Counted from the first letter of the stretch, positions 7,057-38,331 are shown. The stretch is DNA of 64,000 nt from an uncultured Pseudobdellovibrionaceae bacterium (GCA_964463705.1 CAYXCH010000006.1:32576-96575); one strand, 5' to 3'. Notes: a model not told the origin generated them from the letters alone. Program-made: numbers and translations.

Positions 7057-10000
7057 ATGCCAAAAAAAATTACCGGACACACAGAACTCCAGGACAGTGC
7101 CTATATTAGACGCCAAAAAAAACACGTCTCTCAGACACTGTATAAACTGCGACACCAATCGGAAGAGCGTCAAGCGGCAAAAATTGCAAGGGATGCAAAG
7201 CTTCCCTATATTGATCTCAACCTCATGCCGGTGGACGATGCGGTCGTACGAAGTATTGATGAAGCGCAATCTCGCCGATACAATATTGCCATCTTTCATA
7301 AAGCGGGCCGCAATGTGCGAATCGCCATCGCAGATCCATCCAATGATGATGCACTGACCTTTATTAAAGATATTGCGACACAACAGCGGTGGCGTATCGC
7401 GCTTTATGTCGCCTCTCGTTCTTCTTTGGAAAAGGCGTGGCGCGCATATAAAAAGCCACTACTCGCCCAGGTAGATGCGTTCAACCTTGCACTGGATGAC
7501 GAACTTCTCTCCGGTGCCACACGAGCACTGGAAAACCTTCGCGCTCTGGTAGACGGTGAAGATGATGTCAGTACAACACAAGTGCTGCAAATTATCTTTG
7601 CGGGAGCGGTAGCGCTAAACGCCAGCGATATTCATATTGAACCCCAAGAAAATCGGTTGCGTCTACGGTACAGAATTGACGGAATTTTGCACGATGTCGG
7701 CGATTTGCCACGAAGACTGTATACCGGGGTTGTCAATCGCATCAAAATCATGTCGCACATGAAAGTAAATGTGCGCACCATTGCGCAGGACGGGCGATTG
7801 AGCATCGCGTTGGATGGAGAGATGGGGGGTGAAGTGGACATACGTGTCAGCACCATTCCCGGAAATTATGGCGAGAGTATCGTCATGCGCCTATTGATTA
7901 AAACCGGGAAACTTCTTGATCTTTCCGACATGGGACTGCGTGGATTGGCGGATGAAATTGTACGAAAAGAGGCGGACAAACCCAATGGAATGATTGTTAC
8001 AACGGGACCGACGGGAAGCGGAAAAACAACAACGTTATATGCTCTTTTGCAACGAGCAAATAAGCCCGGAGTAAAAATCATTACCATTGAGGATCCGATT
8101 GAGTATGAGATTGACGGTATTTCTCAGACACAAGTATCCAAAGATGGAAAGTATACATTTGCAAAAGGATTGCGCGCCATTGTCCGTCAAGATCCGGATA
8201 TTATTCTTGTTGGAGAGATTCGTGATGATGAGACAGCGGATATTGCCGTTAATGCGGCATTAACGGGTCACCTCGTATTTACAACAATTCATGCCAATAA
8301 TGCTGCCGCTACCATTCCGCGATTCTTGGAATTGGGGGTAAAACCGTCCATCCTCCCACCGGCAATGAATGCCATCATGGCGCAGCGCTTAGTACGACGT
8401 CTGTGCTCACACTGTAAAGAGGCCTATGAGCCGGCGCAGGAAACGTTAGATATGATTAAACGATTGCTGGCAATTATCTCTCCCAAGGCAAAGGTGGAAA
8501 TCCCCAAAGAAATTACAACACTATATCGGCCCAAAGGATGCCAACGATGCGGTGGTGTCGGATACAAGGGACGGATTGGTATTTTTGAAGTGTTTACCAT
8601 TACGGAAAATATTGAAAAAATCATTTCCGATCTTGGAAGTGAAGAAGACATCATGCGCGCCGCAATGGAAGATGGCATGATGACGATGACACAGGATGGG
8701 GTTCTTAAAGCGGTAGAGGGCATTACATCTATGGAAGAGGTGTGGCGCGTAACCGCGGAAGGAGAATTTTTGGAAGATGTTTACAATCGCGTCATGGAAC
8801 AGTCACTGGCGCGAGCGATTGTTGTAGAGCGAGATATTATCACCACTCTCCGATCACTGGTTAATGACCATGAGGCGTTGGCAACCCATATCCACACAAC
8901 AAACCAAAAAACAGTTATTAAGAGCATCCTCGGTGCAGGATTGCTGATGAATGCCGGCGATATTCACATTGAGCCCGCCGCACATGGTGTAGACGTCCGA
9001 TTTCGTATTGATGGAGTATTGCAGAAAATTGGAACACTTCCCATGAATGAATACCCTTCACTCCTTTCCAATCTTAAGCTTGTCAGCGGATTGAAAACGG
9101 AAGAGCGACATGGAGTTGCCGACAGCCGTTTCTCCATTGTCTTAGATGAACCGTTATCGGAAGAACATGACACAACGCGCATTGATGTTCGTATTTCGTT
9201 TATTGTCAGTGGATTCGGAGAAACAATTGTGATGCGTTTGCTAAATCAGAGTGCCACATCACTGGATATTACACAATTGGGAATTCGTGAACAAAACCTT
9301 CACCGTATTATGGACGTGGTGAAAAAACCCTATGGCATCCTCCTTAACACCGGTCCGACGGGAAGCGGAAAAACAACAACGTTGTACAGTTTACTTCGAC
9401 AACTTAATCGCCCTGACGTTAAAATTATCACCGTGGAGGATCCGATTGAGTATCAAATGGACGGCGTATTGCAAACACAAGTAGATGAAGACTCCGGATA
9501 CACATTTGCTACCGCCCTGCGCGCACTGCTGCGACAAAATCCGGATATTATGATGATTGGAGAAATCCGTGATGAAGAGACGGCGCAAATTGCTGTACAG
9601 GCCGCTCTTACAGGCCACCTTATTCTCTCCACGCTACATACAAATTCCAGTGCCGTGGCAATTCAACGCCTAATGAATATGGGAATTAGCACTGAAGATC
9701 TTGCAACCAGTATTAATGCCATGATGGCCCAACGATTGGTTCGTGTCTTGTGTTCGCACTGCAAAAAGAAAGTACGACCATCAGCGGAACAACAATCCGT
9801 ACTCCACAATGTTCTTGATACAATTTCAGATAAGAGTGGCTTAAAAGCTCCGCAGACAACATATATATATCAACCCGTCGGGTGTGAGCAATGCACACAT
9901 GGATACCGAGGCCGAACAACCATCAGTGAAGTTCTCGTTGTCACACCGGAAATTCAAGAGATGATCGGGAATGGAGAACTCGCCACTCATATCATTGACC

Positions 10001-10104
10001 ATGCCGTTTCCAATGGCATGATTACCATGACACAAGATGGTGCGGTAAAAGTCTTTGAGGGTATCACCTCGTTGGAAGAATTGGAGCGCGTTACGGAACT
10101 GTAA
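7057..10104 (+). CDS. Tandem-fused double PilB/GspE-family secretion/pilus ATPase, 1015 aa
   Basis: Two complete ATPase modules. Each has a Walker A (GPTGSGKTTTLYALL / GPTGSGKTTTLYSLL), an Asp box/Walker B (DPDIILVGEIRDDETA / NPDIMMIGEIRDEETA) and a His box (LTGHLVFTTIHAN / LTGHLILSTLHTN). Each also has a tetracysteine motif (CSHCKE...CQRCGG and CSHCKK...CEQCTHGY). A GspE N-terminal domain is present only at the N-terminus. Confidence 0.85.
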   Translation: MPKKITGHTELQDSAYIRRQKKHVSQTLYKLRHQSEERQAAKIARDAKLPYIDLNLMPVDDAVVRSIDEAQSRRYNIAIFHKAGRNVRIAIADPSNDDALTFIKDIATQQRWRIALYVASRSSLEKAWRAYKKPLLAQVDAFNLALDDELLSGATRALENLRALVDGEDDVSTTQVLQIIFAGAVALNASDIHIEPQENRLRLRYRIDGILHDVGDLPRRLYTGVVNRIKIMSHMKVNVRTIAQDGRLSIALDGEMGGEVDIRVSTIPGNYGESIVMRLLIKTGKLLDLSDMGLRGLADEIVRKEADKPNGMIVTTGPTGSGKTTTLYALLQRANKPGVKIITIEDPIEYEIDGISQTQVSKDGKYTFAKGLRAIVRQDPDIILVGEIRDDETADIAVNAALTGHLVFTTIHANNAAATIPRFLELGVKPSILPPAMNAIMAQRLVRRLCSHCKEAYEPAQETLDMIKRLLAIISPKAKVEIPKEITTLYRPKGCQRCGGVGYKGRIGIFEVFTITENIEKIISDLGSEEDIMRAAMEDGMMTMTQDGVLKAVEGITSMEEVWRVTAEGEFLEDVYNRVMEQSLARAIVVERDIITTLRSLVNDHEALATHIHTTNQKTVIKSILGAGLLMNAGDIHIEPAAHGVDVRFRIDGVLQKIGTLPMNEYPSLLSNLKLVSGLKTEERHGVADSRFSIVLDEPLSEEHDTTRIDVRISFIVSGFGETIVMRLLNQSATSLDITQLGIREQNLHRIMDVVKKPYGILLNTGPTGSGKTTTLYSLLRQLNRPDVKIITVEDPIEYQMDGVLQTQVDEDSGYTFATALRALLRQNPDIMMIGEIRDEETAQIAVQAALTGHLILSTLHTNSSAVAIQRLMNMGISTEDLATSINAMMAQRLVRVLCSHCKKKVRPSAEQQSVLHNVLDTISDKSGLKAPQTTYIYQPVGCEQCTHGYRGRTTISEVLVVTPEIQEMIGNGELATHIIDHAVSNGMITMTQDGAVKVFEGITSLEELERVTEL

Positions 10105-10155: not shown

Positions 10156-11361
10156 TTATAACTGAATTCGGTAGAGTTTTTGATCCAGCATGTTAATAAA
10201 GAACAGTGCATCTTCATCCGGAGATAAAAACGGTTGACTAACTTTATATCGCACTGCTGAAGAAACAACATCATCAACTGGAACAACACGATCTTTTTTA
10301 TTTGTTGTAACATTGATTTTCCAAAATGTATCCCGATCCGCCGTCGGAAATGCACAATAAATTGTCACACTGTCTTTACTCCATGCACACTTGCTTACAT
10401 TTGTAGGAATACGAAGTGGACGGTATTCTCCTCCGTTTGCATTGGCAACACCGAGCATCCTCTCATTACTTCCCTTTACCACCGTAGAGCTGATTAAAAT
10501 AATCTGACCGTTCGGTGAAAACAGGTAGTCCGCATTATAATGCCCTTGAAAAAGTGTTTTTGGTGACGGTGACGCATCCAGCAAATTTACCACTTGTAAC
10601 CGGGTTTTCTCAAAAGGATTTGGCGCTCGCCAAAACGCAACACGAGAGGACTGGGGAATATTTACAAAACGTGAACCTCGTGGAATATCTCGTGCAATAA
10701 CTCGCCACTGTGATCCATCCGGCTGTGCCACATTCAATGTCGTTCTTCGTGTCACAGAATCAAAGTATGTGTAGAGAATTCGATCCCCAACTGTTGTCCA
10801 GTCCACGCGATCCACACCCGGCTTTAATGGCACTCCCTTCTGAGTGCGATGATCAAAGAAATAGATTCGTGTACCACCTGATGGATCTACAAATTTTGTT
10901 AATACACGCTGACCATCCGGCGCCCATGCCGCATAAACAAAGTTCTTTAATGGAACGTCGGAAAACGAACGCGGTGATCCTCCCAACAGCGGCACCTCCC
11001 ACACCGTTCCATCTTCTGCCGCATAGTACCGAATCACCTGCTTCTCCTCATCAACATAAGGAGAAACTACAGCATGACGTGAAACCGGAATGATACGACT
11101 TTTTGTTACTGATGGCGCACGATCTTCTGTGTAGGGAGAGGGTGTTGATGATGATGTTGACGATGAAGTTTCTCCTGATGACTCTTCCGTTTGTTCCTTC
11201 CGATCCGTTTTTGATGACTTCTTATCATTGTCTCGTGACGAATCAGAGGTAGTTGTACGCATCACTGTCTGTGTTGGTGGCGTAAACGCAAACCGATAAA
11301 TGCCCAAAAACATCAGAATAACCACCAGTAGAATCGTTGAAACAATAAATACTTTCTTCAT
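10156..11361 (-). CDS. Secreted or membrane-anchored beta-propeller (TolB/PD40-like) protein
   Basis: N-terminal TM/signal anchor, then a Ser/Thr-rich linker, then repeated W/SPDGQ-type motifs (WAPDGQRV, SPNGQII, LSPDEDALFF). Confidence 0.55.
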   Translation of the reverse strand: MKKVFIVSTILLVVILMFLGIYRFAFTPPTQTVMRTTTSDSSRDNDKKSSKTDRKEQTEESSGETSSSTSSSTPSPYTEDRAPSVTKSRIIPVSRHAVVSPYVDEEKQVIRYYAAEDGTVWEVPLLGGSPRSFSDVPLKNFVYAAWAPDGQRVLTKFVDPSGGTRIYFFDHRTQKGVPLKPGVDRVDWTTVGDRILYTYFDSVTRRTTLNVAQPDGSQWRVIARDIPRGSRFVNIPQSSRVAFWRAPNPFEKTRLQVVNLLDASPSPKTLFQGHYNADYLFSPNGQIILISSTVVKGSNERMLGVANANGGEYRPLRIPTNVSKCAWSKDSVTIYCAFPTADRDTFWKINVTTNKKDRVVPVDDVVSSAVRYKVSQPFLSPDEDALFFINMLDQKLYRIQL

Positions 11362-11373
11362 GGTGCCTGAATA

Positions 11374-14300
11374 TTAGATTCGTGGTGTCTTTCGTACCGG
11401 ATACATGCGCCACAGCAACATCATCAGAACAACAACCACTGCCACCGAAACAAATATTCGGAATAAGAATAGGGTCATTCCCGGCGCTGCCGCTCCAATA
11501 GCTGCCATAAACGCCCCCGGTGCATCCCGACGAACGATGGGATTCTCCGTGTACTCAATCTGCATATTTCCCTCAAAGCGAATCGGGGCAAGGTCTTGAT
11601 CTGTCATTTGCCATGTCGTCCGAAGAACATCGCGAACCTCCGGTGTCGGCTGATAGAGCGCTTTTACTTTAATATTTGTGCTCTCACCGGCATTACGCTT
11701 TGTTCCATCTACCGTAATAGTATCTCCTGTTTCCGGCCGATAGACACTTTCCATAAACCACGCCACTGTCGTATCGGGAGCAATCCACCGTGGATGAACG
11801 GACTCAACGATATTCATTGTGGATTTCGGATATGCCAAGAATACCTGATCACTGTATAAGACACGGCCGGCATCCGAATCTCCGGTATATGACTGCGTCT
11901 TCTTCCGATAAACGCCCGTACACGCTCCAACAGATTTATCCGGATCTGTTGGAGATAGCTTGTCACAGAATGATACATAGGGCGCAACAACCTGGAATGT
12001 TCGTGATACATCCACCGCCGCACCGGAGCCATATCCACCACCGGCTTGTTGACCGATACTGTTTGCCGAAACCGATACCGTAAACTTTGTTCCCACATCA
12101 CCCTGTACGGGCAACACCAGGCACGCCCCCGAGGAAATATTTGTGCTTCCGTCCGCACTACACCCGATACCGTACGGATTTTGCACCGGTCGTCCGTTTA
12201 ATTTCCATCGATAGTTCGTGTACCGTGCAATTCCTCCACCACTCGTGGTTTCATTCAATACAATCTTTAATAACTGATTCTTTACCACCGGACATCGCAC
12301 CAATTGCGCATCATTATCTTCACAAATCCTCTGATCATCAGGACTGGATTGCGCTGTTCCGCCGGAGGTAACCACTTCTGCCGCCGATCGCACCGTATAC
12401 ACAAGCATACGATTAGATGCTCGGGTCACTCGAAAAATTACTTCTCCCAATCCGCGACTTACATCATATTGATGCAACTCTGCCGACCCCAGATCAAATG
12501 CCTCCTCAATCTCCACTCGTGCCCGAAGGTATGTTACATCCTTTCCCGGTGGGAAGATTTTATCATTATGTAAGTTTAATTTGAACCGGAGTGTGGACAG
12601 TCCATTCCCCTCCATTGGCGACAATTCCGCTTCGGGAAAATCAAAGACTCCGCGCCCTGCCGCCCCACCGGCGATCAACCCATCTCGCCAGTTTCGTGGA
12701 TCAAAATCTGCCGTTCCATCGGCGCTCTTGTATAGCCGCCACCGATATCGTAAACGATCACTGGGGTACTTGGCATTGAGAATTGTTGCCGTAATTGTTA
12801 CCGTATCTCCCATGTTAAGATGGTTGCCGGTAAGAGAGTTTACCTCATCATTTACCGGGTTATTGGGCTCTACCGTTAATTCAATATCCAGTTTTCGGGC
12901 CGCTCCACCGCGGGTAGGTGATACCAGTGCATGCGGAGAACTTGACAAACACCGATTAAATGCCTCTTCCGGTGATGTATCAGCAAATGCGATTGCGGGA
13001 ATACTTACATCGTATCCTTTGATTTTCACCTTGTATGCACCCGTTGTTGTCGGTACGGAATTATTAACCATTCCGGAGTAGTCACACGCATTATTGACGG
13101 TGGCAAACATGATCATATTTGACGAGTCCCGGTGCTTTGTCGGCAAAATGGACTCTCCTTCCACAACAACACCCACCTGATCTCCCGGTGTATAAATCCA
13201 TGAGAATACCATTTGTCCAAGACCTACGACCGTCGCCTCGTCCTTCACACCATTTTCCGAGGTGTCATTATCAAACGGGTCTGTGTAGTAAAAATCCTCA
13301 TCAATTTTTGGAAAGGCGCCGTCAACTCCTCCTACCTGTGCCGCATCATCGGTATAATCGCCGGTTCTCCGTGGGAAAAGGTGAAATCGCTCAATATCAT
13401 CCTGTGTAATCGGTTGCGGGTTACATGTATCAATCAGATCACTTTCATCAAAGATATCCTTCCCCGTACTTTCTACACCAAACTGCTCTACACCATAAAG
13501 CTCTGCCTCACAAGAATAATACCGATCCAGTACGAATGTATCGGAGCTTGTCATAATGGCATTCTCCTCCAAATTATCTAACTCCTCCGCGGTAATCGGA
13601 GTGGGAACACCATCAACGACAACGGCGGCGGCAAAGCGCGGAGGCGGCCAGAAAGACTGTAATGCGTTAATGTCTTCATCATTACACTGAAACGGAATGA
13701 ACTGCTCATTTGGCTCTACAACATAATTCCCTCCCTCAAGATCTCCCGGCTCACCGATAGGATCATTGCCCGCCTTAGGATCACCGGCAAGATCAGCACC
13801 ACGAGCAATATACAACCATCGCAGCTCTGCCAGTGCATCTTGTCGCTCTTTCTGTTCATCAATTGTATACTCTAACGACTCTTCCGGAACACAGACAGGT
13901 ATTGCGCCCCCATCACATTCCGGCTTTGCTATACTATTAGCAACCTCTTCAAATAATGAGCCTAGTAAACCTCCACTGGAGCGCTCCTCTACGATTGCCG
14001 GACATTCCGGTATACCAACGACACTGCAGATATTAAACGTATTCTCATCAGAAGTAATATTAACGGAAACAATTGTCGTAGACTCTTGCTCTCCGCGTGC
14101 ACTTCCACCATCGCCACCATCGCCACCGCCAGCGGTACCGGAAGATCCGGTAGCACTTGCATCACCACCTTTACCTCCTTTACCGCCCTCTGCCTCTATC
14201 TCCATACGACGATCTCGATCGATGCCACGTGTAATCTGTTTTGCCGGACATGTCAGCGTCTTGTTCGCCACACATACCGGCACCTTTCCCTCCGGACAAT

Positions 14301-15027
14301 TGAAAACCTCATCCGCATTTACACTCCTAACAATTTCATAGTTTTTTCCGGAATTAAAGTCATGAAGATAGTAAAAATATGGCTTTAAGTCACCCACGGA
14401 ACTCCGCGAACGATCACCACCGGGATAGGCAACATACCCATCTTGATCCGTATCACTATCATCCGCTGCATCATCCGCATACTGGATATCAAACCCCCCA
14501 CCGGCAAGTACACGAGCCGCTTCAATTTTCCAGTCCTGCACATCATAGACACCATCATCATTGTAGTCGCAGTCCTCTCCTTCCACTTCTTCTACCACAC
14601 CATTAATCTCCCGAATTGGCGCCGCACCCAAACCATCGCCACACCGGGCACGCTTTAAATACCATGTATAATACAATGTCTCCGGTTCACCTTTAAAAAA
14701 CTTCGCAAATGCTCGGGCGGTAATTTTTTGTCCCGGTTGCGGATCATTGGGAGCAAACAAAATTTGCACTTCCGGCGCTAATGTTTTATTACCACCAACA
14801 TTCGCCACCTCTCCAATATCCCGTACTGATTCCTGACTTACATGATAGCGCTTCTCCGCCCCGCCAAGAATATCATCAATATCCGGAACTCCCAATGCTT
14901 TCCCGGCAGCACCAAAAAGACCACCTAAGGCTTTACCGAATAGTCCCGCATCTACCGGCACCGCTGTCAATAAAAAAATCTGTACAATCACCGTAACAGT
15001 CATTGCAAATTTTCGTATTGTTTTCAT
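11374..15027 (-). CDS. Large cell-surface protein (~1217 aa) with signal peptide, Gly-rich segment and C-terminal TM anchor
   Basis: The probable start is the Met at 15027 (MKTIRKFAMTVTVIVQIFLLTAVPVDA). The ORF-track start at 15123 overlaps the upstream gene. It has a GGKGGKGGDASATGSSGTAGGGDGGDGG tract and a C-terminal hydrophobic helix followed by basic residues. Confidence 0.6.
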   Translation of the reverse strand: MKTIRKFAMTVTVIVQIFLLTAVPVDAGLFGKALGGLFGAAGKALGVPDIDDILGGAEKRYHVSQESVRDIGEVANVGGNKTLAPEVQILFAPNDPQPGQKITARAFAKFFKGEPETLYYTWYLKRARCGDGLGAAPIREINGVVEEVEGEDCDYNDDGVYDVQDWKIEAARVLAGGGFDIQYADDAADDSDTDQDGYVAYPGGDRSRSSVGDLKPYFYYLHDFNSGKNYEIVRSVNADEVFNCPEGKVPVCVANKTLTCPAKQITRGIDRDRRMEIEAEGGKGGKGGDASATGSSGTAGGGDGGDGGSARGEQESTTIVSVNITSDENTFNICSVVGIPECPAIVEERSSGGLLGSLFEEVANSIAKPECDGGAIPVCVPEESLEYTIDEQKERQDALAELRWLYIARGADLAGDPKAGNDPIGEPGDLEGGNYVVEPNEQFIPFQCNDEDINALQSFWPPPRFAAAVVVDGVPTPITAEELDNLEENAIMTSSDTFVLDRYYSCEAELYGVEQFGVESTGKDIFDESDLIDTCNPQPITQDDIERFHLFPRRTGDYTDDAAQVGGVDGAFPKIDEDFYYTDPFDNDTSENGVKDEATVVGLGQMVFSWIYTPGDQVGVVVEGESILPTKHRDSSNMIMFATVNNACDYSGMVNNSVPTTTGAYKVKIKGYDVSIPAIAFADTSPEEAFNRCLSSSPHALVSPTRGGAARKLDIELTVEPNNPVNDEVNSLTGNHLNMGDTVTITATILNAKYPSDRLRYRWRLYKSADGTADFDPRNWRDGLIAGGAAGRGVFDFPEAELSPMEGNGLSTLRFKLNLHNDKIFPPGKDVTYLRARVEIEEAFDLGSAELHQYDVSRGLGEVIFRVTRASNRMLVYTVRSAAEVVTSGGTAQSSPDDQRICEDNDAQLVRCPVVKNQLLKIVLNETTSGGGIARYTNYRWKLNGRPVQNPYGIGCSADGSTNISSGACLVLPVQGDVGTKFTVSVSANSIGQQAGGGYGSGAAVDVSRTFQVVAPYVSFCDKLSPTDPDKSVGACTGVYRKKTQSYTGDSDAGRVLYSDQVFLAYPKSTMNIVESVHPRWIAPDTTVAWFMESVYRPETGDTITVDGTKRNAGESTNIKVKALYQPTPEVRDVLRTTWQMTDQDLAPIRFEGNMQIEYTENPIVRRDAPGAFMAAIGAAAPGMTLFLFRIFVSVAVVVVLMMLLWRMYPVRKTPRI

Positions 15028-15040
15028 AATATATGTCCTG

Positions 15041-15676
15041 TTATACCGCATAGATTCGCACCATAAGAATAACCCCGCTTGTGAGGAAAAAAAATAACAT
15101 CGGTGAAGATAGTGCGCGTGCAAAGTACCCGATGAGCGCCGCCATCACCATTGCCACCGTTCCTCCGATAACCCCGACACCTATCTCTCCCGATGTTACC
15201 AACACTGAACATAGGGTAACAGCAAGTACTGTCATTATTCCCTGTCGCCATAAACCGCATCCAATCACTCCACCATAGAAAAACGCATGGACAATAGCGG
15301 AATACATTAACAATGCACTATACATTATCATTGATAATCCCTCCTGTGCAATTCCCGGAATCCGAATAACTTGTTCCAGTTCACGATTCATCGTAATCGC
15401 TACAAAAAATACCAGAGAGAGTGCCGCTGATGACAACAACGCCAATATCACTCCTCGCATTCCACCCCGACGACGAATACCATACGTGGAGAGCGGAAGC
15501 CGCGCTCCAAAATGGAGTGTAAATACCGGCAATGCCACAAAAAACGCAGTCAATACAATAACGTCCTGAATAACCGTTTCTCGAGGGAACACGCGATACA
15601 GCACCGCCGCACTCAGTGCCGTCATAATAATAATCATATCCCGACGATCAGGAAGAAATTTGTGGATTGCTTGCAT
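15041..15676 (-). CDS. Polytopic membrane protein. Possibly a CPBP/Abi-like intramembrane protease, but weak.
   Basis: Five to six predicted TM helices with NRELEQ and SAIVHAFFYG segments. These are reminiscent of CPBP motifs but not convincingly so. Confidence 0.45.
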   Translation of the reverse strand: MQAIHKFLPDRRDMIIIMTALSAAVLYRVFPRETVIQDVIVLTAFFVALPVFTLHFGARLPLSTYGIRRRGGMRGVILALLSSAALSLVFFVAITMNRELEQVIRIPGIAQEGLSMIMYSALLMYSAIVHAFFYGGVIGCGLWRQGIMTVLAVTLCSVLVTSGEIGVGVIGGTVAMVMAALIGYFARALSSPMLFFFLTSGVILMVRIYAV

Positions 15677-15683
15677 ATGTCCA

Positions 15684-17513
15684 TTATATCACATCCTGCC
15701 GTTGTGCTGATGCATTCCGCTGCGACTGTTTAATTTCCAATAACTGCCGCGGATCCGTTGTAATAATCTGATCCTCGCTATATGAAGCAACAACCTTGAT
15801 CGCTACATGTTTGGTACCGGCAAATAGGATCCCCTCTCCAACATTGCTCTCCAACAAAAGGTATTTCTCCTCATCGGTAAGATAGAATGTTTCCTGCACT
15901 GTCTGCGCCGATGCTGTTGATTGTTTTAACAACAGCTGCAATGATGAGTTTGTTACGATTGGCTTTCCATACCGCGATCCCATAAAATCGGAAATATCCT
16001 GAGTGATTGTTGTCAATCCCGTATAGTACTTACGACACCGCTTGGCGATCCCAAACAAAAAGCTTGCCGCATCTTCTTTCTGCATCATAACCCATGCCTC
16101 ATCCACAATTACCAAGCGGCGCCGTAATTCCGCCCGCATCTTATCCCAAATAAACTGTAACGCGATGTACATGGCAATCGGCCGCAACTCCTCTTCAAGA
16201 TCACGAATATTAAAGACGATAAGATCTGCATTTGTTTTAATATTCGTATGATTATTGAGAAATCCGGAAAAAATTCCTCGTGTATACTTCTCCAATCGTG
16301 CGGAAAGAGATTCCGCTCCCTCCATATTTTCCAGTACTTGCGCAAGATCTGTCATCGTTGGGAATGCTTCCGGCGGAAGATTGCTGAAATCTTTGTCTTC
16401 CGTAATGTCACGAATGGCATACGTCTCCCGTAATGCCGTATCCAAAATAGAATCCTCTTCCGGCGTGGTAGATCCCAACATAATCCTCAATAACCCAATC
16501 AGCATTGCAATATTGGAGCGCAATACCTCTGCGGGACTTTCATCTTCTCCGACACGCGGCAGATCAAAAGGATTAATAAACGACCGTGATTTCAATGACA
16601 ACTGAATAAATGTCCCATTAACCGTATTACACAAATGCCGGTATTCATTTTCCGGATCAATCACAAATACTTGCGTCCCAAACATCATGGAACGAAGAAT
16701 TTCCAGCTTCACGGCATAACTTTTTCCCGCACCGGATTTGGCAAAGATTACCATATTGGCATTAGGCATCGTAAACCGATCCAGAATTACCAATGAGTTA
16801 TTGTGTCGATTGATTCCGTATAAGATGCCATCATCAGATGAAAGTGTTGAAGATACAAACGGGAACGTTGTTGATAATGGCTGAGTGTTCAAATTGTTTC
16901 CAACATCAATTTCATCATTCGCCAGGGGCAACGTAGAGGCAAATCCCTGCTCCATGCGCAACACTGCCGATTTAACAAATACCAACTGCGCTTCCAGGAT
17001 AGCCTGCACTTCTTTCTCCGCTTTCGTTAAGTTTTCCGTACTGTCGGCGTAAATGGTAATATATAATCCAAAGCGAAAAAAGTGCTCTGTTCCCTGCAAT
17101 AACTTGTCGCGCAGTGCCTCAATGTCCTGCAACGCCGTTTCCAACATTGGATTACGTACTTTCCCCTCTTCGCGCTCAATAGCAATTTGCGACTCTACTT
17201 GTGTTACGCTCCGACGCAATTTTTTCAGAATATCATTCGTTCGGATAGGGTGAATGAAGTACGCAATATCCATCGGTAAATCAAGGTTGATAATGGGAGA
17301 AAACCAGTTTGTTTGCAAATATCGCGGATAAGCCGTTACAAACAATGTTTTTGCATATACCTCTCCAATTGCCAAATGCATCGGTGAAACACGAACGGCG
17401 CTAGGCGCAATAAGACCGCGAACTGTTGCCACACCTCGCTGAAAAATTTTCTCCGCCTCTACAATCGATGTTTCTTCCGGTGAAGATGCATGTTGTTTCA
17501 ATATTTGTACCAT
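15684..17513 (-). CDS. VirB4/TrbE-family conjugation ATPase, C-terminal ATPase portion
   Basis: Walker A AKSGAGKSYAVK and Walker B RRLVIVDEAWVMM. The upstream segment EVYAKTLFVTAYPRY is typical of the VirB4 middle region. Confidence 0.8.
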   Translation of the reverse strand: MVQILKQHASSPEETSIVEAEKIFQRGVATVRGLIAPSAVRVSPMHLAIGEVYAKTLFVTAYPRYLQTNWFSPIINLDLPMDIAYFIHPIRTNDILKKLRRSVTQVESQIAIEREEGKVRNPMLETALQDIEALRDKLLQGTEHFFRFGLYITIYADSTENLTKAEKEVQAILEAQLVFVKSAVLRMEQGFASTLPLANDEIDVGNNLNTQPLSTTFPFVSSTLSSDDGILYGINRHNNSLVILDRFTMPNANMVIFAKSGAGKSYAVKLEILRSMMFGTQVFVIDPENEYRHLCNTVNGTFIQLSLKSRSFINPFDLPRVGEDESPAEVLRSNIAMLIGLLRIMLGSTTPEEDSILDTALRETYAIRDITEDKDFSNLPPEAFPTMTDLAQVLENMEGAESLSARLEKYTRGIFSGFLNNHTNIKTNADLIVFNIRDLEEELRPIAMYIALQFIWDKMRAELRRRLVIVDEAWVMMQKEDAASFLFGIAKRCRKYYTGLTTITQDISDFMGSRYGKPIVTNSSLQLLLKQSTASAQTVQETFYLTDEEKYLLLESNVGEGILFAGTKHVAIKVVASYSEDQIITTDPRQLLEIKQSQRNASAQRQDVI

Positions 17514-17530
17514 GGAATATGGTGTTAATT

Positions 17531-18226
17531 CTATAACCCCTTCAAGTCCAGCGTATCAATATTCTCTGACAGCGATGTGCTGGTAAATAAGGAGGGATTA
17601 TATGCATTATACAACAGCTCCAATACTTCCTCCGTATTCAACATTCGTCCGCGCACTCCGGTTCCCCCGAGTGCCGCCGCCACATGATCTACTCGTTGAA
17701 ACAACTGATTTTTATATGTTTCAAATCTCTCTCGCTTACGTGCAATTTTGTGTGCCGGGTGTAGTGCATGAAACAATCGGAGAAATATACTCTCTCCCTC
17801 ACTTTCCACGGGAGAAAACGGCACAACGACATAAAAATATTTTGTCATAATGTTCCGTACCTCCGTTAATTCACTAATGTATGCGCGGTACTCCATAATT
17901 TGCATACGAAGCGCCTCATTCTCCGTCATCCGCTCTCGTTTATCAATTTTCTTCAAGTATGGGGCAATATTAAGACGACGAGAATTAATAACGATTTGTA
18001 CGGGAAAATCCAATGAGTTTAAAAAACTCTGATACTGAATAATAATCGCATCTTGCTCTTTTTCCGATTTCAACTCAAAATTAATGGAAGACATCATTAC
18101 AATAGCACGCAATGAACCGTTCCGTAAGACGATAACACCATCGTGTACCGACTCTACGTCCACATATTTCAATGTGCTGGATCCCGATGGCCCCGTACTC
18201 AGTGATGTAGAATGTAATCGCTCCAT
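17531..18226 (-). CDS. VirB4 N-terminal domain protein. The VirB4 gene is split into two ORFs.
   Basis: HDGVIVLRNGSLRAIVMMSSINFELKSEKE matches the VirB4 N-terminal pattern. It ends 17 nt before the start of the ATPase ORF, in a different frame. Confidence 0.65.
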   Translation of the reverse strand: MERLHSTSLSTGPSGSSTLKYVDVESVHDGVIVLRNGSLRAIVMMSSINFELKSEKEQDAIIIQYQSFLNSLDFPVQIVINSRRLNIAPYLKKIDKRERMTENEALRMQIMEYRAYISELTEVRNIMTKYFYVVVPFSPVESEGESIFLRLFHALHPAHKIARKRERFETYKNQLFQRVDHVAAALGGTGVRGRMLNTEEVLELLYNAYNPSLFTSTSLSENIDTLDLKGL

Positions 18227-18231
18227 AACTA

Positions 18232-18699
18232 CTACTTCTTCTTTGTTACCGTGTTGGCAGAAATTTCATCAAATCGCTCAGGGTGAACTGCTCCCTCCGT
18301 ATCCAGCACAGTGGAAAGTGTTGACAAATCTTCTTCGCTCAGTTTTGCTTGTTCCCGATAGAACTGAGATTTATACTGGGTCTTTGGCGGTGGAGCGGTA
18401 GGTGTAGCCGATGATGATTTTGGCACACGCTTCCACACATAAATTTTTGGCTGGAAAAGATATGTCAGTGCATATCCAATGAATACAACCAGCGGAACAC
18501 CCTGCGGACGATAAAATGCCAGCGCAACAAATATCAATACGACGGGAATCCCGATAATGTAAAATGCTTCCTGGCTAAATACATTCCATAGTATCAACAG
18601 TATCGCCCCCATCGCAAGAAACCACAAAAACTGTCGTGCCGTCAACGGACCGGCAATTTTATCTTCAACATTGATAAACTGCGGTACGCTGAAAATCAT
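18232..18699 (-). CDS. PrgI/VirB3-like small membrane protein
   Basis: N-terminal VPQFINVEDKIAGPLTARQFLWFLAMG followed by two TM helices. It sits immediately upstream of VirB4, as prgI/virB3 normally does. Confidence 0.5.
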   Translation of the reverse strand: MIFSVPQFINVEDKIAGPLTARQFLWFLAMGAILLILWNVFSQEAFYIIGIPVVLIFVALAFYRPQGVPLVVFIGYALTYLFQPKIYVWKRVPKSSSATPTAPPPKTQYKSQFYREQAKLSEEDLSTLSTVLDTEGAVHPERFDEISANTVTKKK

Positions 18700-19679
18700 A
18701 CGGTTGTATTATGTTTTGCGTCCGATGATCGTTCTCGCGCAAATACTTGTGGTGATGAGAACCTTACATATCCCATCGGAGTGGATGGTGATGCTGATTT
18801 TATTGTACCACGATTTCCGGTACGTGTCGCCCCGGTGGCAGTGGTAGATAGTTTATCAGGTGATGTACGAGAAGAATTCGCTGCTTTTCTCTCTGATGTG
18901 GGAGCAGGTGTATGCGCTACAGATGATGAAATACCTTCACGATGTGGAATATCCTGTGGAGCCGGAAATATAATAGCCGGCTGAGCGGTATTGATTACCA
19001 ATGGAATCTTCTCATCATAAGACTTTAAAATCATTGCAACACGCTGTCGTTCCTGCGGCGAAAGTGATTTTGTATTGCGATTATGAAATAGATACTTCCC
19101 CCGATCAATTGCATTATGTGTACGAGATCCCATCACTGATCGATAATTCTGCAGCCAATTCTCCACCGTCCCCGGAACGTGTTCCGGCATAATAATATCC
19201 TGCTGTGTAATACGCTGAATGGCAATATCGGGAAACTGTTTTAGTGCCGCTGTTAATGGCATACGAACATTAGCATTGACGATCTCCTTCCGAATAACAC
19301 GCCGTACCAATACTTGTGCAATCTGTGCCGCCACCGATGCCTCCACACCGGTGTGTTCTTGAATATATGCCGCAAACCGTTCCAATGGCAGTTCTTCAAA
19401 GTAGAACAGCCGCACCGCCCGTGAAAGATATGCCGCCTGTTCAACAGATAGTGAGTATTGCTTACTGATTTCTTTAATTTTCTTGTCCGTTTCCTCTGAT
19501 GCAAGAATGTCTTTAGCGCTGTCACTTAATGCAAAAAACTTCCTCCATCGCTCGGCATTTTCCTCCTCTGTTTCCCGCGGACTTGTCGGTACCCACATTG
19601 GCGAATAGCTTTGCACTATATATACATCATTTGGTGATATGACAGAAGAGGCGGTATGATGATGAGACTGATTAGGCAT
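18696..19679 (-). CDS. Hypothetical protein within the T4SS-like operon
   Basis: 327-aa ORF with a 4-nt overlap (ATGA-type coupling) with the downstream gene. No family motif recognised. Confidence 0.5.
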   Translation of the reverse strand: MPNQSHHHTASSVISPNDVYIVQSYSPMWVPTSPRETEEENAERWRKFFALSDSAKDILASEETDKKIKEISKQYSLSVEQAAYLSRAVRLFYFEELPLERFAAYIQEHTGVEASVAAQIAQVLVRRVIRKEIVNANVRMPLTAALKQFPDIAIQRITQQDIIMPEHVPGTVENWLQNYRSVMGSRTHNAIDRGKYLFHNRNTKSLSPQERQRVAMILKSYDEKIPLVINTAQPAIIFPAPQDIPHREGISSSVAHTPAPTSERKAANSSRTSPDKLSTTATGATRTGNRGTIKSASPSTPMGYVRFSSPQVFARERSSDAKHNTTV

Positions 19680-19695
19680 ACGTCATATTATTAAA

Positions 19696-21540
19696 CTATT
19701 TGTTGCCCGGACGGGGTTGATTATTCGAGTATTGCCTATATACATCCGACAATCGCTCCAATTGGTTGTGATTATCTTGTTCGGTATTACGAAACACTTC
19801 TCGCAATGCATCTTGATTATCAAAGAATTGCTCATCTAAGTATCTCTGCATTACTTTTGCGGAATTGCGAACTTCTCCAAGGCCTTGCTGCTTTGCCATC
19901 TCTTGAGGTGAAATATCCATATGCAGTGCCGCCGCATCTTCCGGTGCGACAACAATGATGTTATTTTCATCATCAAGCTCAAGGTCTTGTCCGGTATTGT
20001 ATGAATACTCTACCAATGTTCCGCGACGCTTTTGGCGATTTATCTCTCCCTTCAACTGAAATCGATATGCCGCCGTCTCTGCGCCATTACCAATTGCTCG
20101 CGTTGTTGTCGCAATATCAGTGGCGGTAAGTCGACCCCGTTTTGCCAACTCCATTGCCGCCGCCGCCCGCTCATGGCGGCTTTTTTTAGAATTTAAAACT
20201 CTTCTCAATTGACTTGGCGAAAGATGCTCCATTGACTTGGAAAATGAAGCCACCGCATTGGCAAACGCCTCTGCTTTTGCACGCTCTCTCTCCACAATGG
20301 CAAACTGTGCCGACAGTACCTGTGCATGACGATTCGCCTTTCGCTCAAATCGTTCACGACGGCGCTGCGCACTTACTTTGAATGATCGGGCGGTGCCGAC
20401 AACAAGAGCTGCTCCCGGTATCTTTCTCGCCATATTTGCAATAAGCTTTCGGTCCTTCGCCGCCATACCGCGGAGACGACGAACAGTGTTCCGAGCAGCA
20501 CCGGTAACCATTCCACTGGCAGCATCGGACATTGCTGATGATGTAATAATACCGGACCATAGGATAATTACCGGAATTGCCAAAAATGCGATATTGGCAA
20601 TATTTGATGTTTGTGCGGCATTGGTGGCGGCGGTATCAGCGGGAATTGTGATGCGAATATCACTATCTTTACTAAATGCAATATCATGATTATATGCCAT
20701 GAATGTCATGGAGAAGAACAATGTAAACACGAGAATTGGCCCCGCCATCGCATATTTAAACAAGTTATTCCAATATCGACTGGCAATACCCTGTGTAGAC
20801 GGAAGTATGGATGCAACAAACCCTATTGGTGACAGTACCATAAGAATTGCCAATGCAACCAATCGAATAACAAATAATACCCCGATAACCACCATGGATA
20901 TACTGTAGAAGAAAGAGAAGATAACGGCAAAAAATGTATATGTTACTGAGGATGTCTTGGCATCAAAGTTGGGAACAAATACATCCATAATATTAATACT
21001 CCTTCCGAAAATCTCTACCGGCTCATACCCCGTACCGTTCTGTGGAAACAGTGAATGAAGAAAAAAGTACATGACAATATTGAAGACATCAATAATCGCC
21101 TTAGTGATTGGAAGGGAAAAGTTTACCAATAGCGCCATAATCACCAAGCGCAATAATATTGATCGTAAATGAAACCGTTCTATATGGAAAATTGTTGCAA
21201 ATGCGCTAAATAATAGAATAAGAATGAATGATAAGTTTAATAGATCCCTTACCAATACCCACGTTACATCAATAACTTGCGCATCCAGAATTGCTCGTGT
21301 CGTATCGGCATCCACAATGTAAACAAATAACAGTGTCCCCGCAACACCCAATAATCCAAAGCCGACACCGATATAGTATAACACCCAGTTAAGTCCCGAC
21401 ACGATCGCGGAAGCATCAGCAATATGGATACCCAGAAATACGCCGATAATCGCCAGTAATCCGGCGCGCCTGCGTGTTCCGGTTGTCACATTCAACAATC
21501 TTTTCAAATATTGCCTCATAAAAATAATCATTTCTATCAT
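19696..21540 (-). CDS. VirB6/TrbL-like polytopic membrane protein with C-terminal coiled-coil/charged tail
   Basis: About 8 hydrophobic helices followed by a long Arg/Ala/Glu-rich tail. The start is set at the Met at 21540, because the ORF-track start (21666) would overlap yraN. Confidence 0.6.
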   Translation of the reverse strand: MIEMIIFMRQYLKRLLNVTTGTRRRAGLLAIIGVFLGIHIADASAIVSGLNWVLYYIGVGFGLLGVAGTLLFVYIVDADTTRAILDAQVIDVTWVLVRDLLNLSFILILLFSAFATIFHIERFHLRSILLRLVIMALLVNFSLPITKAIIDVFNIVMYFFLHSLFPQNGTGYEPVEIFGRSINIMDVFVPNFDAKTSSVTYTFFAVIFSFFYSISMVVIGVLFVIRLVALAILMVLSPIGFVASILPSTQGIASRYWNNLFKYAMAGPILVFTLFFSMTFMAYNHDIAFSKDSDIRITIPADTAATNAAQTSNIANIAFLAIPVIILWSGIITSSAMSDAASGMVTGAARNTVRRLRGMAAKDRKLIANMARKIPGAALVVGTARSFKVSAQRRRERFERKANRHAQVLSAQFAIVERERAKAEAFANAVASFSKSMEHLSPSQLRRVLNSKKSRHERAAAAMELAKRGRLTATDIATTTRAIGNGAETAAYRFQLKGEINRQKRRGTLVEYSYNTGQDLELDDENNIIVVAPEDAAALHMDISPQEMAKQQGLGEVRNSAKVMQRYLDEQFFDNQDALREVFRNTEQDNHNQLERLSDVYRQYSNNQPRPGNK

Positions 21541-21937: not shown

Positions 21938-21940
21938 ATA

Positions 21941-21965
21941 TACAAAAAGGCGGGAAATCCCGCCT
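21941..21965 (-). terminator. Intrinsic terminator ending the intergenic transcript, 8 nt upstream of the yraN ATG
   Basis: On the minus strand: AGGCGGG, AUUU, CCCGCCU, followed by UUUUUGUAUAU. Confidence 0.55.
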
Positions 21966-22495
21966 ACATTCCGTTAAGATACCGACAATCCACTGTCAGT
22001 CAATTCCCGGTGTCTTCCCGTATGAGGTGTTGTCACCGGGGGCACTGCGCCCCTAAACAGATTCCTTGGGCCGTGCCGCCCGGCTGATGCAGACAACATG
22101 CTGCGCGCTTCTCGTACTCGGGTGAATGGATACAAGAAGAAACAGTGCATGTAATATATCTGCCTCACACACGTGATTCTATCACGCGCTGACATGGTGC
22201 GAGCATTGCTCGCCTACGCCTCCCCGTCCGCGGGTTTGCTCCCCTTTTTTTCTTCAAGGTACTCGGTACACTTTTGTTTTTATTTTTGTGTTTTTGTATT
22301 TATGCTTGATAAATACGACCGTTTTGTTTTTGTTTTTTGTGTGTTGTGTTGTTTGCCGGCATCATATGATGCTCAGACTAACAAACATACGGACAGTGGA
22401 GACGTTCCGATTGTGAATAGGGGGGCTTCACAATCGGAACGTCGCCACCGTCGGCGTCCATGTCATTTCTTGTTAATGTGCGTTTCGTTACTGAC
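21941..22495 (-). ncRNA. Candidate ~555-nt non-coding transcript of unknown class
   Basis: Bounded by a near-consensus sigma70 promoter (22502..22530) and an intrinsic terminator (21941..21965). No ORF of meaningful length. Contains a perfect 17-bp hairpin (22398..22440) and an A/C-rich tract. Confidence 0.3.
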
Positions 22496-22501
22496 AAGCT
22501 C

Positions 22502-22530
22502 AGTATATCATCCTCTAAAGGCCACGTCAA
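22502..22530 (-). promoter_or_regulatory. Near-consensus sigma70 promoter
   Basis: On the minus strand: TTGACG, a 17-nt spacer, then TATACT. Confidence 0.5.
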
Positions 22531-22653
22531 CGCATTTATAAAAAAATGCCGTAAATAAAGGGATTTTTAATATGCTTACATAAAAACAATATAGTTGTTA
22601 TAAAATTATGCCAAAAAAATACCGCCATTTTTATTTAAAGTACAATAAAAAAC

Positions 22654-22679
22654 TGTGGAAAACTTGGTAGTTTTCCACA
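22654..22679. promoter_or_regulatory. Inverted pair of DnaA-box-like 9-mers
   Basis: TGTGGAAAA, an 8-nt spacer, then TTTTCCACA. The same 9-mer family occurs in the oriC clusters near dnaA. Confidence 0.4.
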
Positions 22680-22700
22680 GTTTCATATCATTTTCCCAAC

Positions 22701-32345: not shown

Positions 32346-32504
32346 AAAAACACCTCGTTAACTTACACCCGTATTTTACCGCACTTAAAGTAATTGCGCC
32401 AATTATTCTCTTTCCGAAAAATTGTTATTTGCAAAGAGCAGAGTTCGGAAAATAAAACGCATTCTATTTATTGGCAATGTGCCACGACAAACAAAAATCC
32501 ATCG

Positions 32505-33338: not shown

Positions 33339-33774
33339 AATTAATAAAGTTATCTACAACTGTTTTAGAAATCTCTCTGCCTATTCTGTTACAGAATTTT
33401 TCATTTTAATGGTTAAGTCAATACTATCTTAAAAGCTGTTTATTCCCCCGCTTACAATAAGGGATTGGCATTTGAATTTGAGTGCAAGAGCACATCCGTT
33501 TACGAAATAAGTTTTCATAGCAAACTCAATCACAAAGCGATGACTGCTTTACAAAGTAAAATACTTATTTAGAGCTTGTCAACTATTTGTATTTTTGATG
33601 TGTCGCTTCTATCACAAAATACACTTTGGATAAAAACAAGTTGTACAGAATTCCACTACACTTTTGCTTCACTCTGTTGCCATCTTAGCGCATCATTAAA
33701 AACATATTATATTAAGCATTACAACCCCGTACGCATTTCGAAATCTGAACGAGTACTTTATTTGTTGCACTATA

Positions 33775-34260: not shown

Positions 34261-34272
34261 GGATGTTTGAAG

Positions 34273-37145: not shown

Positions 37146-37158
37146 ACAACTTTAGTTA

Positions 37159-38049: not shown

Positions 38050-38058
38050 ATATTTTAC

Positions 38059-38316: not shown

Positions 38317-38331
38317 AAATATTTCAACAGA

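What the first reader, a model, noticed from the sequence alone, without database searches (positions are those of the whole stretch)
10156..15123. Giant anchored surface protein and secreted beta-propeller encoded at the distal end of the T4SS-like operon
A ~1217-aa protein with a signal peptide, a Gly-rich flexible tract and a C-terminal TM anchor directly follows the VirB4-membrane protein genes. A secreted PD40-like propeller protein follows it. Their position suggests they are the surface-exposed component of the T4SS-like apparatus, or its cargo or adhesin. No recognisable domain explains the ~1000-aa ectodomain.
Basis: inference. Interest (0 to 1): 0.5.

Follow-up and report, generated by a model that had tools for sequence, protein, structure and literature searches.

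The report
Surface protein family tied to T4SS
In this ultra-small Moranbacteria (Patescibacteria) genome, the last genes of the type IV secretion operon encode an unnamed, membrane-anchored stalk-like surface protein and a tethered beta-propeller, which are the best current candidates for the secretion machine's outward, host-facing parts.

Summary
The large gene most likely starts at ATG 15027 (stop 11374), giving 1217 aa. It has a cleavable signal peptide, a Gly-rich tract, 20 Cys and a C-terminal TM anchor. A 211-aa polytopic membrane gene (15041-15676) lies between VirB4 and this gene. The 401-aa protein is a confident 7-bladed TolB-like propeller, but it looks tethered by an uncleaved N-terminal helix rather than secreted.

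The large protein ('BIG') founds an unnamed family: 511 representatives at 50% identity, no Pfam/NCBIfam/PDB sequence match, nearly all from Moranbacteria. The family shares a conserved N-module, a hypervariable segment (7-365 aa), a highly conserved core with a TSP3-like Asp motif, an Ig-like array and a conserved TM.

In 56 of 66 species-level genomes BIG sits directly after VirB4. In 9 it is unlinked from VirB4, yet 7 of those 9 loci still carry VirB2-like pilin genes next to it. A catalytically degenerate CPBP/Rce1-like protein almost always precedes it.

Best reading (0.5): a Sec-exported, PrgB-like host-contact arm of the T4SS. A role as T4SS cargo is unlikely. All function is inferred from synteny and predicted folds.

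A structured ~550-nt unknown RNA was found in passing at 21948-22510.

The parts
11374..15027 (-). BIG: 1217-aa Sec-exported, C-terminally anchored surface protein (type I topology). Founding member of an unnamed family found almost only in Moranbacteria.
   Evidence: ORF and start codon. No Pfam, NCBIfam, PHROG or PDB sequence hit. 511 representatives in 1.84 billion proteins. Synteny.
14947..15027 (-). BIG signal peptide, aa 1-27, with cleavage motif VDA|G.
   Evidence: Hydropathy scan and sequence. Family consensus PAxA.
14323..14877 (-). BIG conserved N-terminal module, aa 51-235, with motifs YYTWYLK, DWKIEA and DxDxDGY. Predicted to be the membrane-distal head.
   Evidence: Column conservation across 48 diverse members. 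Beta-sandwich plus helices in the AF2 model at pLDDT 74-82.
13423..14322 (-). BIG hypervariable Cys-rich segment, aa 236-535. Includes the Gly-rich tract (aa 287-310, nt 14098-14169) and a ~270-aa insert specific to this subclade.
   Evidence: Segment length ranges from 7 to 365 aa across the family, with occupancy 0.13-0.44. The model is disordered here. One member carries a Laminin_G_3 lectin insert.
13078..13383 (-). BIG most conserved core, aa 549-650: HLFP...TDPxDxDTxxNGxxDEAxVVGLGQ...GDxVGVxVEG. Carries a TSP3-like Asp-rich putative Ca2+ motif.
   Evidence: Highest column identity in the family, 0.6-0.7. The divergent member P0017 has the canonical-looking DPNNPDTDGDGINDEAD. The TSP3 Pfam model itself does not hit.
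11548..13077 (-). BIG array of about 4-5 Ig-like beta-sandwich domains, aa 651-1160. Predicted membrane-proximal stalk.
11392..11493 (-). BIG C-terminal TM anchor, aa 1179-1212, followed by the basic tail RMYPVRKTPRI. No LPXTG motif.
   Evidence: Hydropathy scan. Conserved A1175, P1182 and F1187. LPXTG absent in 47 of 48 members.
15041..15676 (-). 211-aa polytopic membrane protein with a CPBP/Rce1-like fold and degenerate catalytic motifs. Near-constant upstream partner of BIG.
   Evidence: Family HMM E=4e-19. Relatives hit PF02517. Directly upstream of BIG in 68 of 80 loci. 59 of 83 members have 0-1 His. The window copy has also lost the conserved E and R.
10156..11361 (-). 401-aa protein: N-terminal TM helix (aa 2-25, nt 11287-11358), disordered Ser/Thr/Glu/Lys-rich linker (aa 26-88), and 7-bladed TolB/PD40-like beta-propeller (aa 89-401, nt 10159-11097).
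   Evidence: AF2 mean pLDDT 89.5. Foldseek vs PDB. 52 homologues. Terminal gene of the cluster in 22 of 54 loci.
15684..21516 (-). Upstream T4SS core of the same operon: VirB6-like (from ~21516), 327-aa unknown, PrgI/VirB3, TrsD-like VirB4 N-domain, and VirB4 ATPase.
   Evidence: Pfam and NCBIfam hits. Conserved order in 33+ loci. Intergenic gaps 4-17 nt.

Best explanation
BIG is a lineage-specific accessory subunit of the chromosomal, monoderm-type (MPF-FATA-like) T4SS of Moranbacteria.

Proposed working:
1. It is exported by Sec and its signal peptide is cut.
2. It stays in the cytoplasmic membrane through its C-terminal helix, with the basic tail inside.
3. A chain of Ig-like domains acts as a stalk. 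The stalk carries the conserved core, a hypervariable Cys-rich or lectin-bearing segment and a conserved N-terminal head away from the cell, across wall and surface layer.
4. There it makes or stabilises contact with the host cell for the T4SS and its VirB2-like pilus. This is the job PrgB-type adhesins do for Gram-positive conjugation systems.
5. The CPBP-like protein encoded just upstream has lost its protease residues. It most likely acts as a membrane partner that holds or positions BIG's conserved TM segment at the T4SS platform.
6. The 401-aa protein is a membrane-tethered propeller that some clades add as an extracytoplasmic binding module.

Shown: topology signals, fold classes, family distribution and synteny. 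Inferred: host contact, the partnership with the CPBP-like protein, and any physical link to the T4SS.
For: T4SS identity of the operon: VirB4 of the CD1110 family (6.8e-103), PrgI, TrsD and a weak VirB6 match.

Tight operon spacing without terminators.

Synteny:
- BIG directly follows VirB4-(192 aa)-CPBP in 56 of 66 species-level genomes.
- A member with only 15% BLAST coverage (P0017) keeps the same context.
- In the 9 loci unlinked from VirB4, PF18895 T4SS-pilin genes were found next to BIG in 7.
- Three of the four such genomes listed in Table S1 of PMC12102498 carry VirB4 elsewhere.

Protein features:
- Sec signal, C-terminal TM, 20 Cys and an acidic ectodomain.
- Ig-like array at fold level.
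- A hypervariable segment flanked by conserved modules, and a lectin insert in one member.

Literature: PrgB has the same overall plan, namely signal peptide, adhesin head, four Ig-like stalk domains and a C-terminal anchor (PMC10588982). The published Patescibacteria T4SS survey found no adhesins with existing HMMs (PMC12102498).
Against: - No experiment, expression data or interaction prediction supports a physical link to the T4SS.
- The BIG model is only moderately confident (pLDDT 62.6, pTM 0.39, 17-sequence alignment). Ig-like folds are generic.
- The N-terminal head is conserved while the variable part is internal, which is not the classic 'variable tip' of an adhesin.
- Conserved residues inside the TM helix would also fit a structural subunit.
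- One draft genome with BIG is listed as lacking VirB4 (GWC2_37_8).
- The window itself has no VirB2-like pilin gene and no 192-aa gene within 64 kb.
Confidence: 0.5

Rival explanations
1. BIG is a structural, envelope-spanning part of the machine itself, such as a stalk, ring or pilus platform. It would stand in for the missing VirB8/9/10-type parts rather than acting as an adhesin. Multiple copies would surround the VirB6/VirB3/VirB4 platform and guide the pilus through wall and surface layer.
For: - Invariant or near-invariant residues lie in and before the TM helix (A1175, P1182, F1187).
- BIG has a near-constant membrane partner and a fixed gene position right after VirB4.
- The family keeps a conserved N-module and core.
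- VirB8 homologues are rarely detected in Patescibacteria (PMC12102498).
Against: - The internal segment varies from 7 to 365 aa and can carry a lectin insert, which is unusual for a symmetric channel part.
- No fold match to VirB8, VirB9 or VirB10.
- The family is confined to one order although the T4SS is phylum-wide.
Confidence: 0.2
2. BIG is a general envelope or S-layer-type protein. Acidic, Ig-rich and C-terminally anchored, it resembles archaeal S-layer glycoproteins. On this view its place next to the T4SS genes reflects co-regulation or history, not shared function.
For: - Net charge -64, Ig-like array, Sec signal and C-terminal TM anchor.
- In 9 of 66 genomes it is unlinked from VirB4 and sits after DksA-LspA housekeeping genes.
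- Convergent Wzy_C and glycosyltransferase genes often lie next to the cluster.
Against: - Pilin genes were found next to BIG in 7 of the 9 loci unlinked from VirB4.
- BIG lies 13 nt downstream in a long operon, with no strong promoter of its own.
- The position after VirB4 is kept down to about 25% identity.
Confidence: 0.15
3. The C-terminal helix plus basic tail is a sorting signal. The neighbouring CPBP-family protein would cleave it, as myxosortase or archaeosortase-type systems do (comparison from general knowledge). BIG would then be released or re-anchored to the wall or a lipid.
For: - CPBP/Rce1-like identity of the partner (PF02517 hits in relatives).
- Near-constant adjacency.
- A conserved motif precedes the TM (F-L-A-A-L-x-S-Y-x-P).
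Against: - The partner family lacks the FxxxH and HxxxN/D motifs, and 59 of 83 members have 0-1 His.
- Only the second Glu and the Arg of motif 1 are kept.
- The window copy has lost even those.
Confidence: 0.08
4. BIG and/or the propeller are substrates (cargo or effectors) delivered by the T4SS into the host.
For: Only their position at the distal end of the operon.
Against: - Both carry N-terminal hydrophobic export or anchor signals, and BIG has a C-terminal TM anchor. By established knowledge, T4SS substrates are normally recruited from the cytoplasm.
- No T4CP was examined here.
- No toxin or enzyme fold was found.
Confidence: 0.03

Closest known systems
PrgB (aggregation substance) and antigen I/II-type adhesins of Gram-positive conjugative T4SS (pCF10)
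   Same: Size is about 1200-1300 aa. Both have an N-terminal Sec signal, a disordered or variable region, a binding head, a stalk of tandem Ig-like domains and a C-terminal anchor. Both are encoded in the operon of a monoderm T4SS (PMC10588982).
   Different: - No sequence similarity and no adhesin Pfam domain.
- A TM helix replaces the LPXTG sortase anchor.
- The gene lies after virB4, not before the T4SS genes.
- It is chromosomal, not plasmid-borne (no tblastn hit in 72,556 plasmids).
- It is paired with a CPBP-like protein.
Patescibacteria T4SS as described in Southlakia epibionticum and the phylum-wide survey (Wang 2023, PMC10633639; Quinonero-Coronel 2025, PMC12102498)
   Same: The core matches: split TrsD + VirB4, PrgI/VirB3, VirB6, VirB2-like pilins in relatives, and no relaxase nearby. 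The locus is chromosomal and near dnaA (dnaA at 49864-51276, about 35 kb away).
   Different: Those studies report peptidase and lysozyme genes after virB4 in Saccharimonadia and found no adhesins. The CPBP-like/BIG/propeller module is not described there.
CPBP / Rce1-like intramembrane proteases (PF02517)
   Same: The 211-aa partner family aligns to PF02517 in relatives. It keeps a polytopic layout and the xExxxR-G part of motif 1.
   Different: The His-containing motifs 2 and 3 are absent family-wide. The window copy also lost the Glu and Arg. It is best viewed as a pseudo-protease.
TolB / PD40-type beta-propellers (also the propellers of tricorn, trilobed and prolyl-oligopeptidase proteases)
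   Same: A seven four-stranded blades fold with top Foldseek matches at E~1e-10 and TM 0.5-0.65. One homologue is labelled 'Tol biopolymer transport system component' by its source.
   Different: - No TolB N-terminal domain and no attached peptidase domain.
- Anchored by an N-terminal TM helix and a long disordered linker.
- The Pfam PD40 match is below threshold.
- Patescibacteria are monoderm by general knowledge, so there is no Tol-Pal system to join.

Membership tests
PrgB / antigen I/II-type T4SS adhesins | N-terminal Sec signal peptide | tested here: met
   Hydrophobic aa 4-31 with a VDA|G site. Conserved in the family.
PrgB / antigen I/II-type T4SS adhesins | Stalk of tandem Ig-like domains | tested here: met
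PrgB / antigen I/II-type T4SS adhesins | C-terminal LPXTG sortase motif | tested here: not met
   No LPXTG-like motif in BIG, and it is absent in 47 of 48 family members.
PrgB / antigen I/II-type T4SS adhesins | Sequence homology to the polymer-adhesin or CSA/CSC domains | tested here: not met
   No Pfam or NCBIfam hit for BIG or for 48 members. No plasmid tblastn hit.
Component of an MPF-FATA-like (monoderm) T4SS locus | Encoded in one gene cluster with VirB4, VirB3/PrgI and VirB6 | tested here: met
   Window operon. VirB4 lies directly upstream in 56 of 66 genomes.
Component of an MPF-FATA-like (monoderm) T4SS locus | Co-occurrence with the T4SS genome-wide (never without it) | tested here: inconclusive
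   Three of the four VirB4-unlinked genomes listed in Table S1 of PMC12102498 have VirB4 elsewhere. One draft is listed as 'No'. No complete-genome census was possible.
Component of an MPF-FATA-like (monoderm) T4SS locus | Physical association with, or requirement for, T4SS function | not testable with these tools
   Needs genetics, cryo-ET or interaction data.
CPBP / Rce1-like intramembrane protease (the 211-aa partner) | Match to PF02517 at or above the gathering score | tested here: inconclusive
   The window copy has no Pfam hit. Relatives: L062 at 22.7 bits against a cutoff of 22.4, L002 at 19.6 bits, and a precomputed hit in L091. The window copy matches the family HMM at 4e-19.
CPBP / Rce1-like intramembrane protease (the 211-aa partner) | Catalytic motifs EExxxR, FxxxH and HxxxN/D | tested here: not met
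   Family consensus is Y-E-x-F-F-R-G only. Only 1 of 83 members has EExxxR, and 59 of 83 have 0-1 His. The window copy has S, A and G at the conserved E, E and R positions.
TolB / PD40 beta-propeller (the 401-aa protein) | Six- to eight-bladed propeller of four-stranded blades | tested here: met
   28 strands at aa 90-401 with pLDDT ~97. Propeller matches at E~1e-10.
TolB / PD40 beta-propeller (the 401-aa protein) | PD40 repeat above the Pfam threshold | tested here: not met
   PF07676 scores 14.5 bits against a cutoff of 20.9.
TolB / PD40 beta-propeller (the 401-aa protein) | TolB N-terminal domain and a Pal/TolA partner | tested here: not met
   Only a TM helix and a disordered linker precede the propeller. 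No Tol-Pal genes were seen among the neighbours examined.
Thrombospondin type-3 (TSP3) Ca2+-binding repeat (BIG core motif) | DxDxDGxxDxxD-type repeat recognised by a TSP3 model | tested here: not met
   No PF02412 or PF18884 hit. Only motif resemblance: TDPFDNDTSENGVKDEA in the window and DPNNPDTDGDGINDEAD in P0017.

The most novel reading that the evidence does not exclude
CPBP-like protein, BIG, the VirB2-like pilin-domain proteins and the tethered propeller (plus the 192-aa membrane protein missing from this window) may together form a previously unrecognised extracellular module of the Patescibacteria T4SS. This module would build the wall- and S-layer-crossing, host-touching end of the machine in Moranbacteria. 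It can be encoded apart from the VirB4 core. BIG's hypervariable segment would set host range.
Probability: 0.25. Interest if true: 0.7.

Novelty: new variant of a known kind. Interest (0 to 1): 0.45.

Why it matters
The T4SS is essential for epibiotic growth in the only genetically tractable Patescibacteria (PMC10633639). Tubular structures that the authors suggest may be T4SS pili have been seen reaching toward host cells (10.64898/2026.06.21.733656). The parts that cross the envelope and touch the host are still unknown, and the phylum-wide survey found no adhesins.

A large, conserved, exported protein fixed next to virB4 in one major order gives a concrete candidate for that role. Its variable middle segment and near-constant pseudo-protease partner add detail to the candidate. 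It also provides sequence markers (YYTWYLK, DWKIEA, GDQVGVxVEG) to trace it, and a variable region whose diversity could be compared with host range.

It does not yet change what is known about how these systems work. Moranbacteria are uncultured, so tests will be indirect for now.

Tried and rejected
- Sequence libraries gave nothing for BIG: Pfam, NCBIfam and PHROGs; PDB phmmer and profile search, which returned only E~0.1 antibody light chains; and tblastn against plasmids and phages.
- A second word-indexed homologue search with the alignment added no new proteins.
- Pfam on 48 diverse members found no shared domain.
- The afdb50 fold library was unavailable.
- An active CPBP sorting protease was considered and rejected on motif loss.
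- LPXTG/sortase anchoring was rejected.
- T4SS cargo was rejected on topology.
- HMMs for the 192-aa protein, VirB2-like pilin, LspA and DksA found no copy in the window.
- Literature searches for Moranbacteria + T4SS and for CPBP + Patescibacteria pili found no prior description.
- Rfam found nothing in the 21.9-22.7 kb gap.


Full report
**1. What is there**

On the minus strand the window carries one tightly packed gene string:
- VirB6-like (19696 to about 21516);
- a 327-aa unknown (18696-19679);
- PrgI/VirB3 (18232-18699);
- a TrsD-like protein equal to the VirB4 N-domain (17531-18226);
- the VirB4 ATPase (15684-17513);
- a 211-aa polytopic membrane protein (15041-15676);
- the large protein, called BIG here (ATG 15027, stop 11374, 1217 aa);
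- a 401-aa protein (10156-11361).

Pfam and NCBIfam identify the core as a monoderm-type T4SS. VirB4 matches the CD1110 family at 6.8e-103, PrgI at 5e-10 and TrsD at 3e-8, and VirB6/TrbL only weakly. Gaps between genes are 4-17 nt or overlaps, with no terminator-like hairpin between them. The ATG at 15027 has an AGGA 9 nt upstream, and homologues align from it. An independent ENA assembly has the same order.

The locus is chromosomal. dnaN and dnaA lie at 48.5-51.3 kb, where the GC skew changes sign. This fits the reported origin-proximal position of Patescibacteria T4SS genes (PMC12102498).

**2. The large protein**

Direct sequence features:
- a signal peptide ending VDA|G;
- a Gly/Ser/Asp tract at aa 287-310;
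- 20 Cys and net charge -64;
- a TM helix at aa 1179-1212 followed by a basic tail, giving type I topology with an ectodomain of about 1150 aa.

No sequence library recognises it. The word-indexed search found 18 relatives. An exhaustive profile search of 1.84 billion representatives found 511 at E<=1e-3 and 375 at E<=1e-30; the 150 best listed are 461-1301 aa long, most of them 800-1300 aa. A scan of species-representative genomes found 118 relatives. Nearly all are labelled Moranbacteria/Moraniibacteriota or unspecific Parcubacteria/Patescibacteria names. Many TPA assemblies are labelled 'Bdellovibrionales' but carry the same Patescibacteria-type locus.

Across 48 diverse members the layout is as follows:
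- a conserved N-module (aa 51-235);
- a hypervariable, Cys-rich segment whose length ranges from 7 to 365 aa (aa 236-535 here, including a ~270-aa insert shared only with the four closest relatives);
- the most conserved stretch (aa 549-650);
- a moderately conserved C-terminal half;
- a TM helix with near-invariant A, P and F residues.

The conserved stretch holds an Asp-rich motif. In the divergent member P0017 it reads DPNNPDTDGDGINDEAD, which is TSP3-like, although no TSP3 model hits.

**3. The propeller**

The AlphaFold2 model has pLDDT 89.5. It shows a TM helix at aa 2-25, a disordered Ser/Thr/Glu/Lys-rich linker to aa 88, then 28 strands forming seven blades. Fold matches are oligogalacturonate lyase, the trilobed/tricorn protease propellers, TolB and prolyl-oligopeptidase propellers. 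There is no catalytic domain. The N-terminal helix lacks a signal-peptidase site in the window and in the family consensus, so the protein is probably tethered, not secreted. Its 52 detected homologues sit at the end of the same cluster even at 27-32% identity, often next to convergent Wzy_C genes.

**4. Context across genomes**

ORFs of the 85 related loci held at that point were labelled with family HMMs.
- Of 66 species-level loci with at least 3.5 kb upstream, 56 have VirB4 directly upstream. The typical order is VirB6-327aa-PrgI-TrsD-VirB4-192aa-CPBP-BIG.
- Nine have PNPase-426aa-UPF0102-DksA-LspA-CPBP-BIG, with no T4SS core genes in between.
- In 7 of those nine loci, proteins with a PF18895 T4SS-pilin domain were found next to BIG.
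- Three of the four such genomes listed in Table S1 of PMC12102498 do have VirB4 elsewhere. The fourth is a draft.

BIG therefore belongs to a module that can be separated from the VirB4 core but usually stays with T4SS parts. The propeller follows BIG in 22 of 54 loci and pilin genes in 11 of 54. In 32 of 54 loci neither lies within 6 kb downstream, and where examined (L002) BIG is then the last gene of the string. The window lacks both the 192-aa membrane gene and any pilin gene.

**5. The near-constant partner**

The gene just upstream of BIG is homologous in 68 of 80 loci. Relatives match PF02517 (Rce1-like/CPBP) at or near threshold. The family keeps only Y-E-x-F-F-R-G of motif 1 and lacks the two His motifs. 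59 of 83 members have 0-1 His in the whole protein, and the window copy has also lost the Glu and Arg. It is best read as a pseudo-protease membrane partner, not a sorting protease.

**6. Interpretation**

The evidence fits an exported, membrane-anchored stalk protein that serves the T4SS on the outside of the cell. The closest working analogue is PrgB of pCF10, which has a signal peptide, an adhesin head, four Ig-like stalk domains and a C-terminal anchor (PMC10588982). Membership in that family fails on homology and on LPXTG. Structural-subunit and S-layer readings remain open. Cargo is unlikely. Published work on Patescibacteria T4SS does not describe this module and reports no adhesins. 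All functional statements are inference from topology, fold class and synteny.

**7. Seen in passing**

The 760-nt gene-free gap between the 426-aa gene and UPF0102 holds a conserved, structured RNA candidate.
- The gap is present in all 11 relatives that carry both flanking genes.
- In most of the 12 aligned sequences it starts after a TTGAC-N17-TGnTATAAT promoter; where the alignment reaches the 3' end, it ends in a hairpin plus T-run.
- 30 of 47 predicted pairs show compensatory changes, against 15.4+-2.3 in shuffles and 7-10 in slid controls.
- Rfam has no match.

Noticed in passing
window 21948-22510 (minus strand), inside the gene-free gap 21938-22700: Candidate ~550-nt structured non-coding RNA with no Rfam match. 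It starts after a strong promoter-like site (TTGACG-17-TG-TATACT, 22530-22502) and ends at a GC hairpin plus T-run (21965-21948). The gap is present in all 11 relatives that carry the flanking genes, with 75% DNA identity over 531 nt to L001. 30 of 47 predicted pairs show compensatory changes, against 15.4+-2.3 in shuffles and 7-10 in slid controls. It has long CA/A-rich linkers and a hairpin loop CCCCCUAUU.
   Followed up: partly
window 15676-15684 (junction of VirB4 and the 211-aa gene): The ~192-aa membrane protein found between VirB4 and the CPBP-like gene in most relatives, including the close relatives L001 and L008, is cleanly absent here and has no copy elsewhere in the 64 kb. An independent assembly shows the same absence.
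   Followed up: yes
window 7057-10104 (+), convergent with the propeller gene: A 1015-aa protein made of two tandem PilB/T2SSE-type ATPase units (MshEN + T2SSE + T2SSE in the precomputed Pfam of the same gene and of its L001 homologue), followed by a conserved 347-aa unknown. The pair is found only in the closest relatives.
   Followed up: partly
window 48547-51276 (-) and GC-skew minimum near 50-53 kb: dnaN and dnaA lie here, and the cumulative GC skew turns from falling to rising. The replication origin is therefore about 30-40 kb from the T4SS operon, which runs co-directionally with replication.
   Followed up: partly
window 32000-40000: G+C drops to 0.37-0.41 against 0.44-0.51 on both sides. 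This may be a foreign island.
   Followed up: no
loci L009-L011, L015, L017 and many others: Dozens of TPA metagenome bins titled 'uncultured Bdellovibrionales bacterium' carry the same Patescibacteria-type VirB6-PrgI-TrsD-VirB4-CPBP-BIG locus as bins titled Moraniibacteriota. The taxonomic labels of those records look wrong.
   Followed up: no
L013, L057, L062, L063, L067, L075, L078, L080, L081: A divergent Moranbacteria clade has the CPBP-BIG-(pilin)-propeller module after PNPase-426aa-UPF0102-DksA/TraR zinc finger-signal peptidase II, with the VirB4 core elsewhere in the genome.
   Followed up: partly
window 17531-18226 and 15684-17513 (-): VirB4 is split. A separate 231-aa TrsD/TraC-like ORF matches the N-terminal ~120-200 residues of VirB4 models, and the 609-aa ATPase matches the rest. 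This agrees with the published Patescibacteria pattern.
   Followed up: yes
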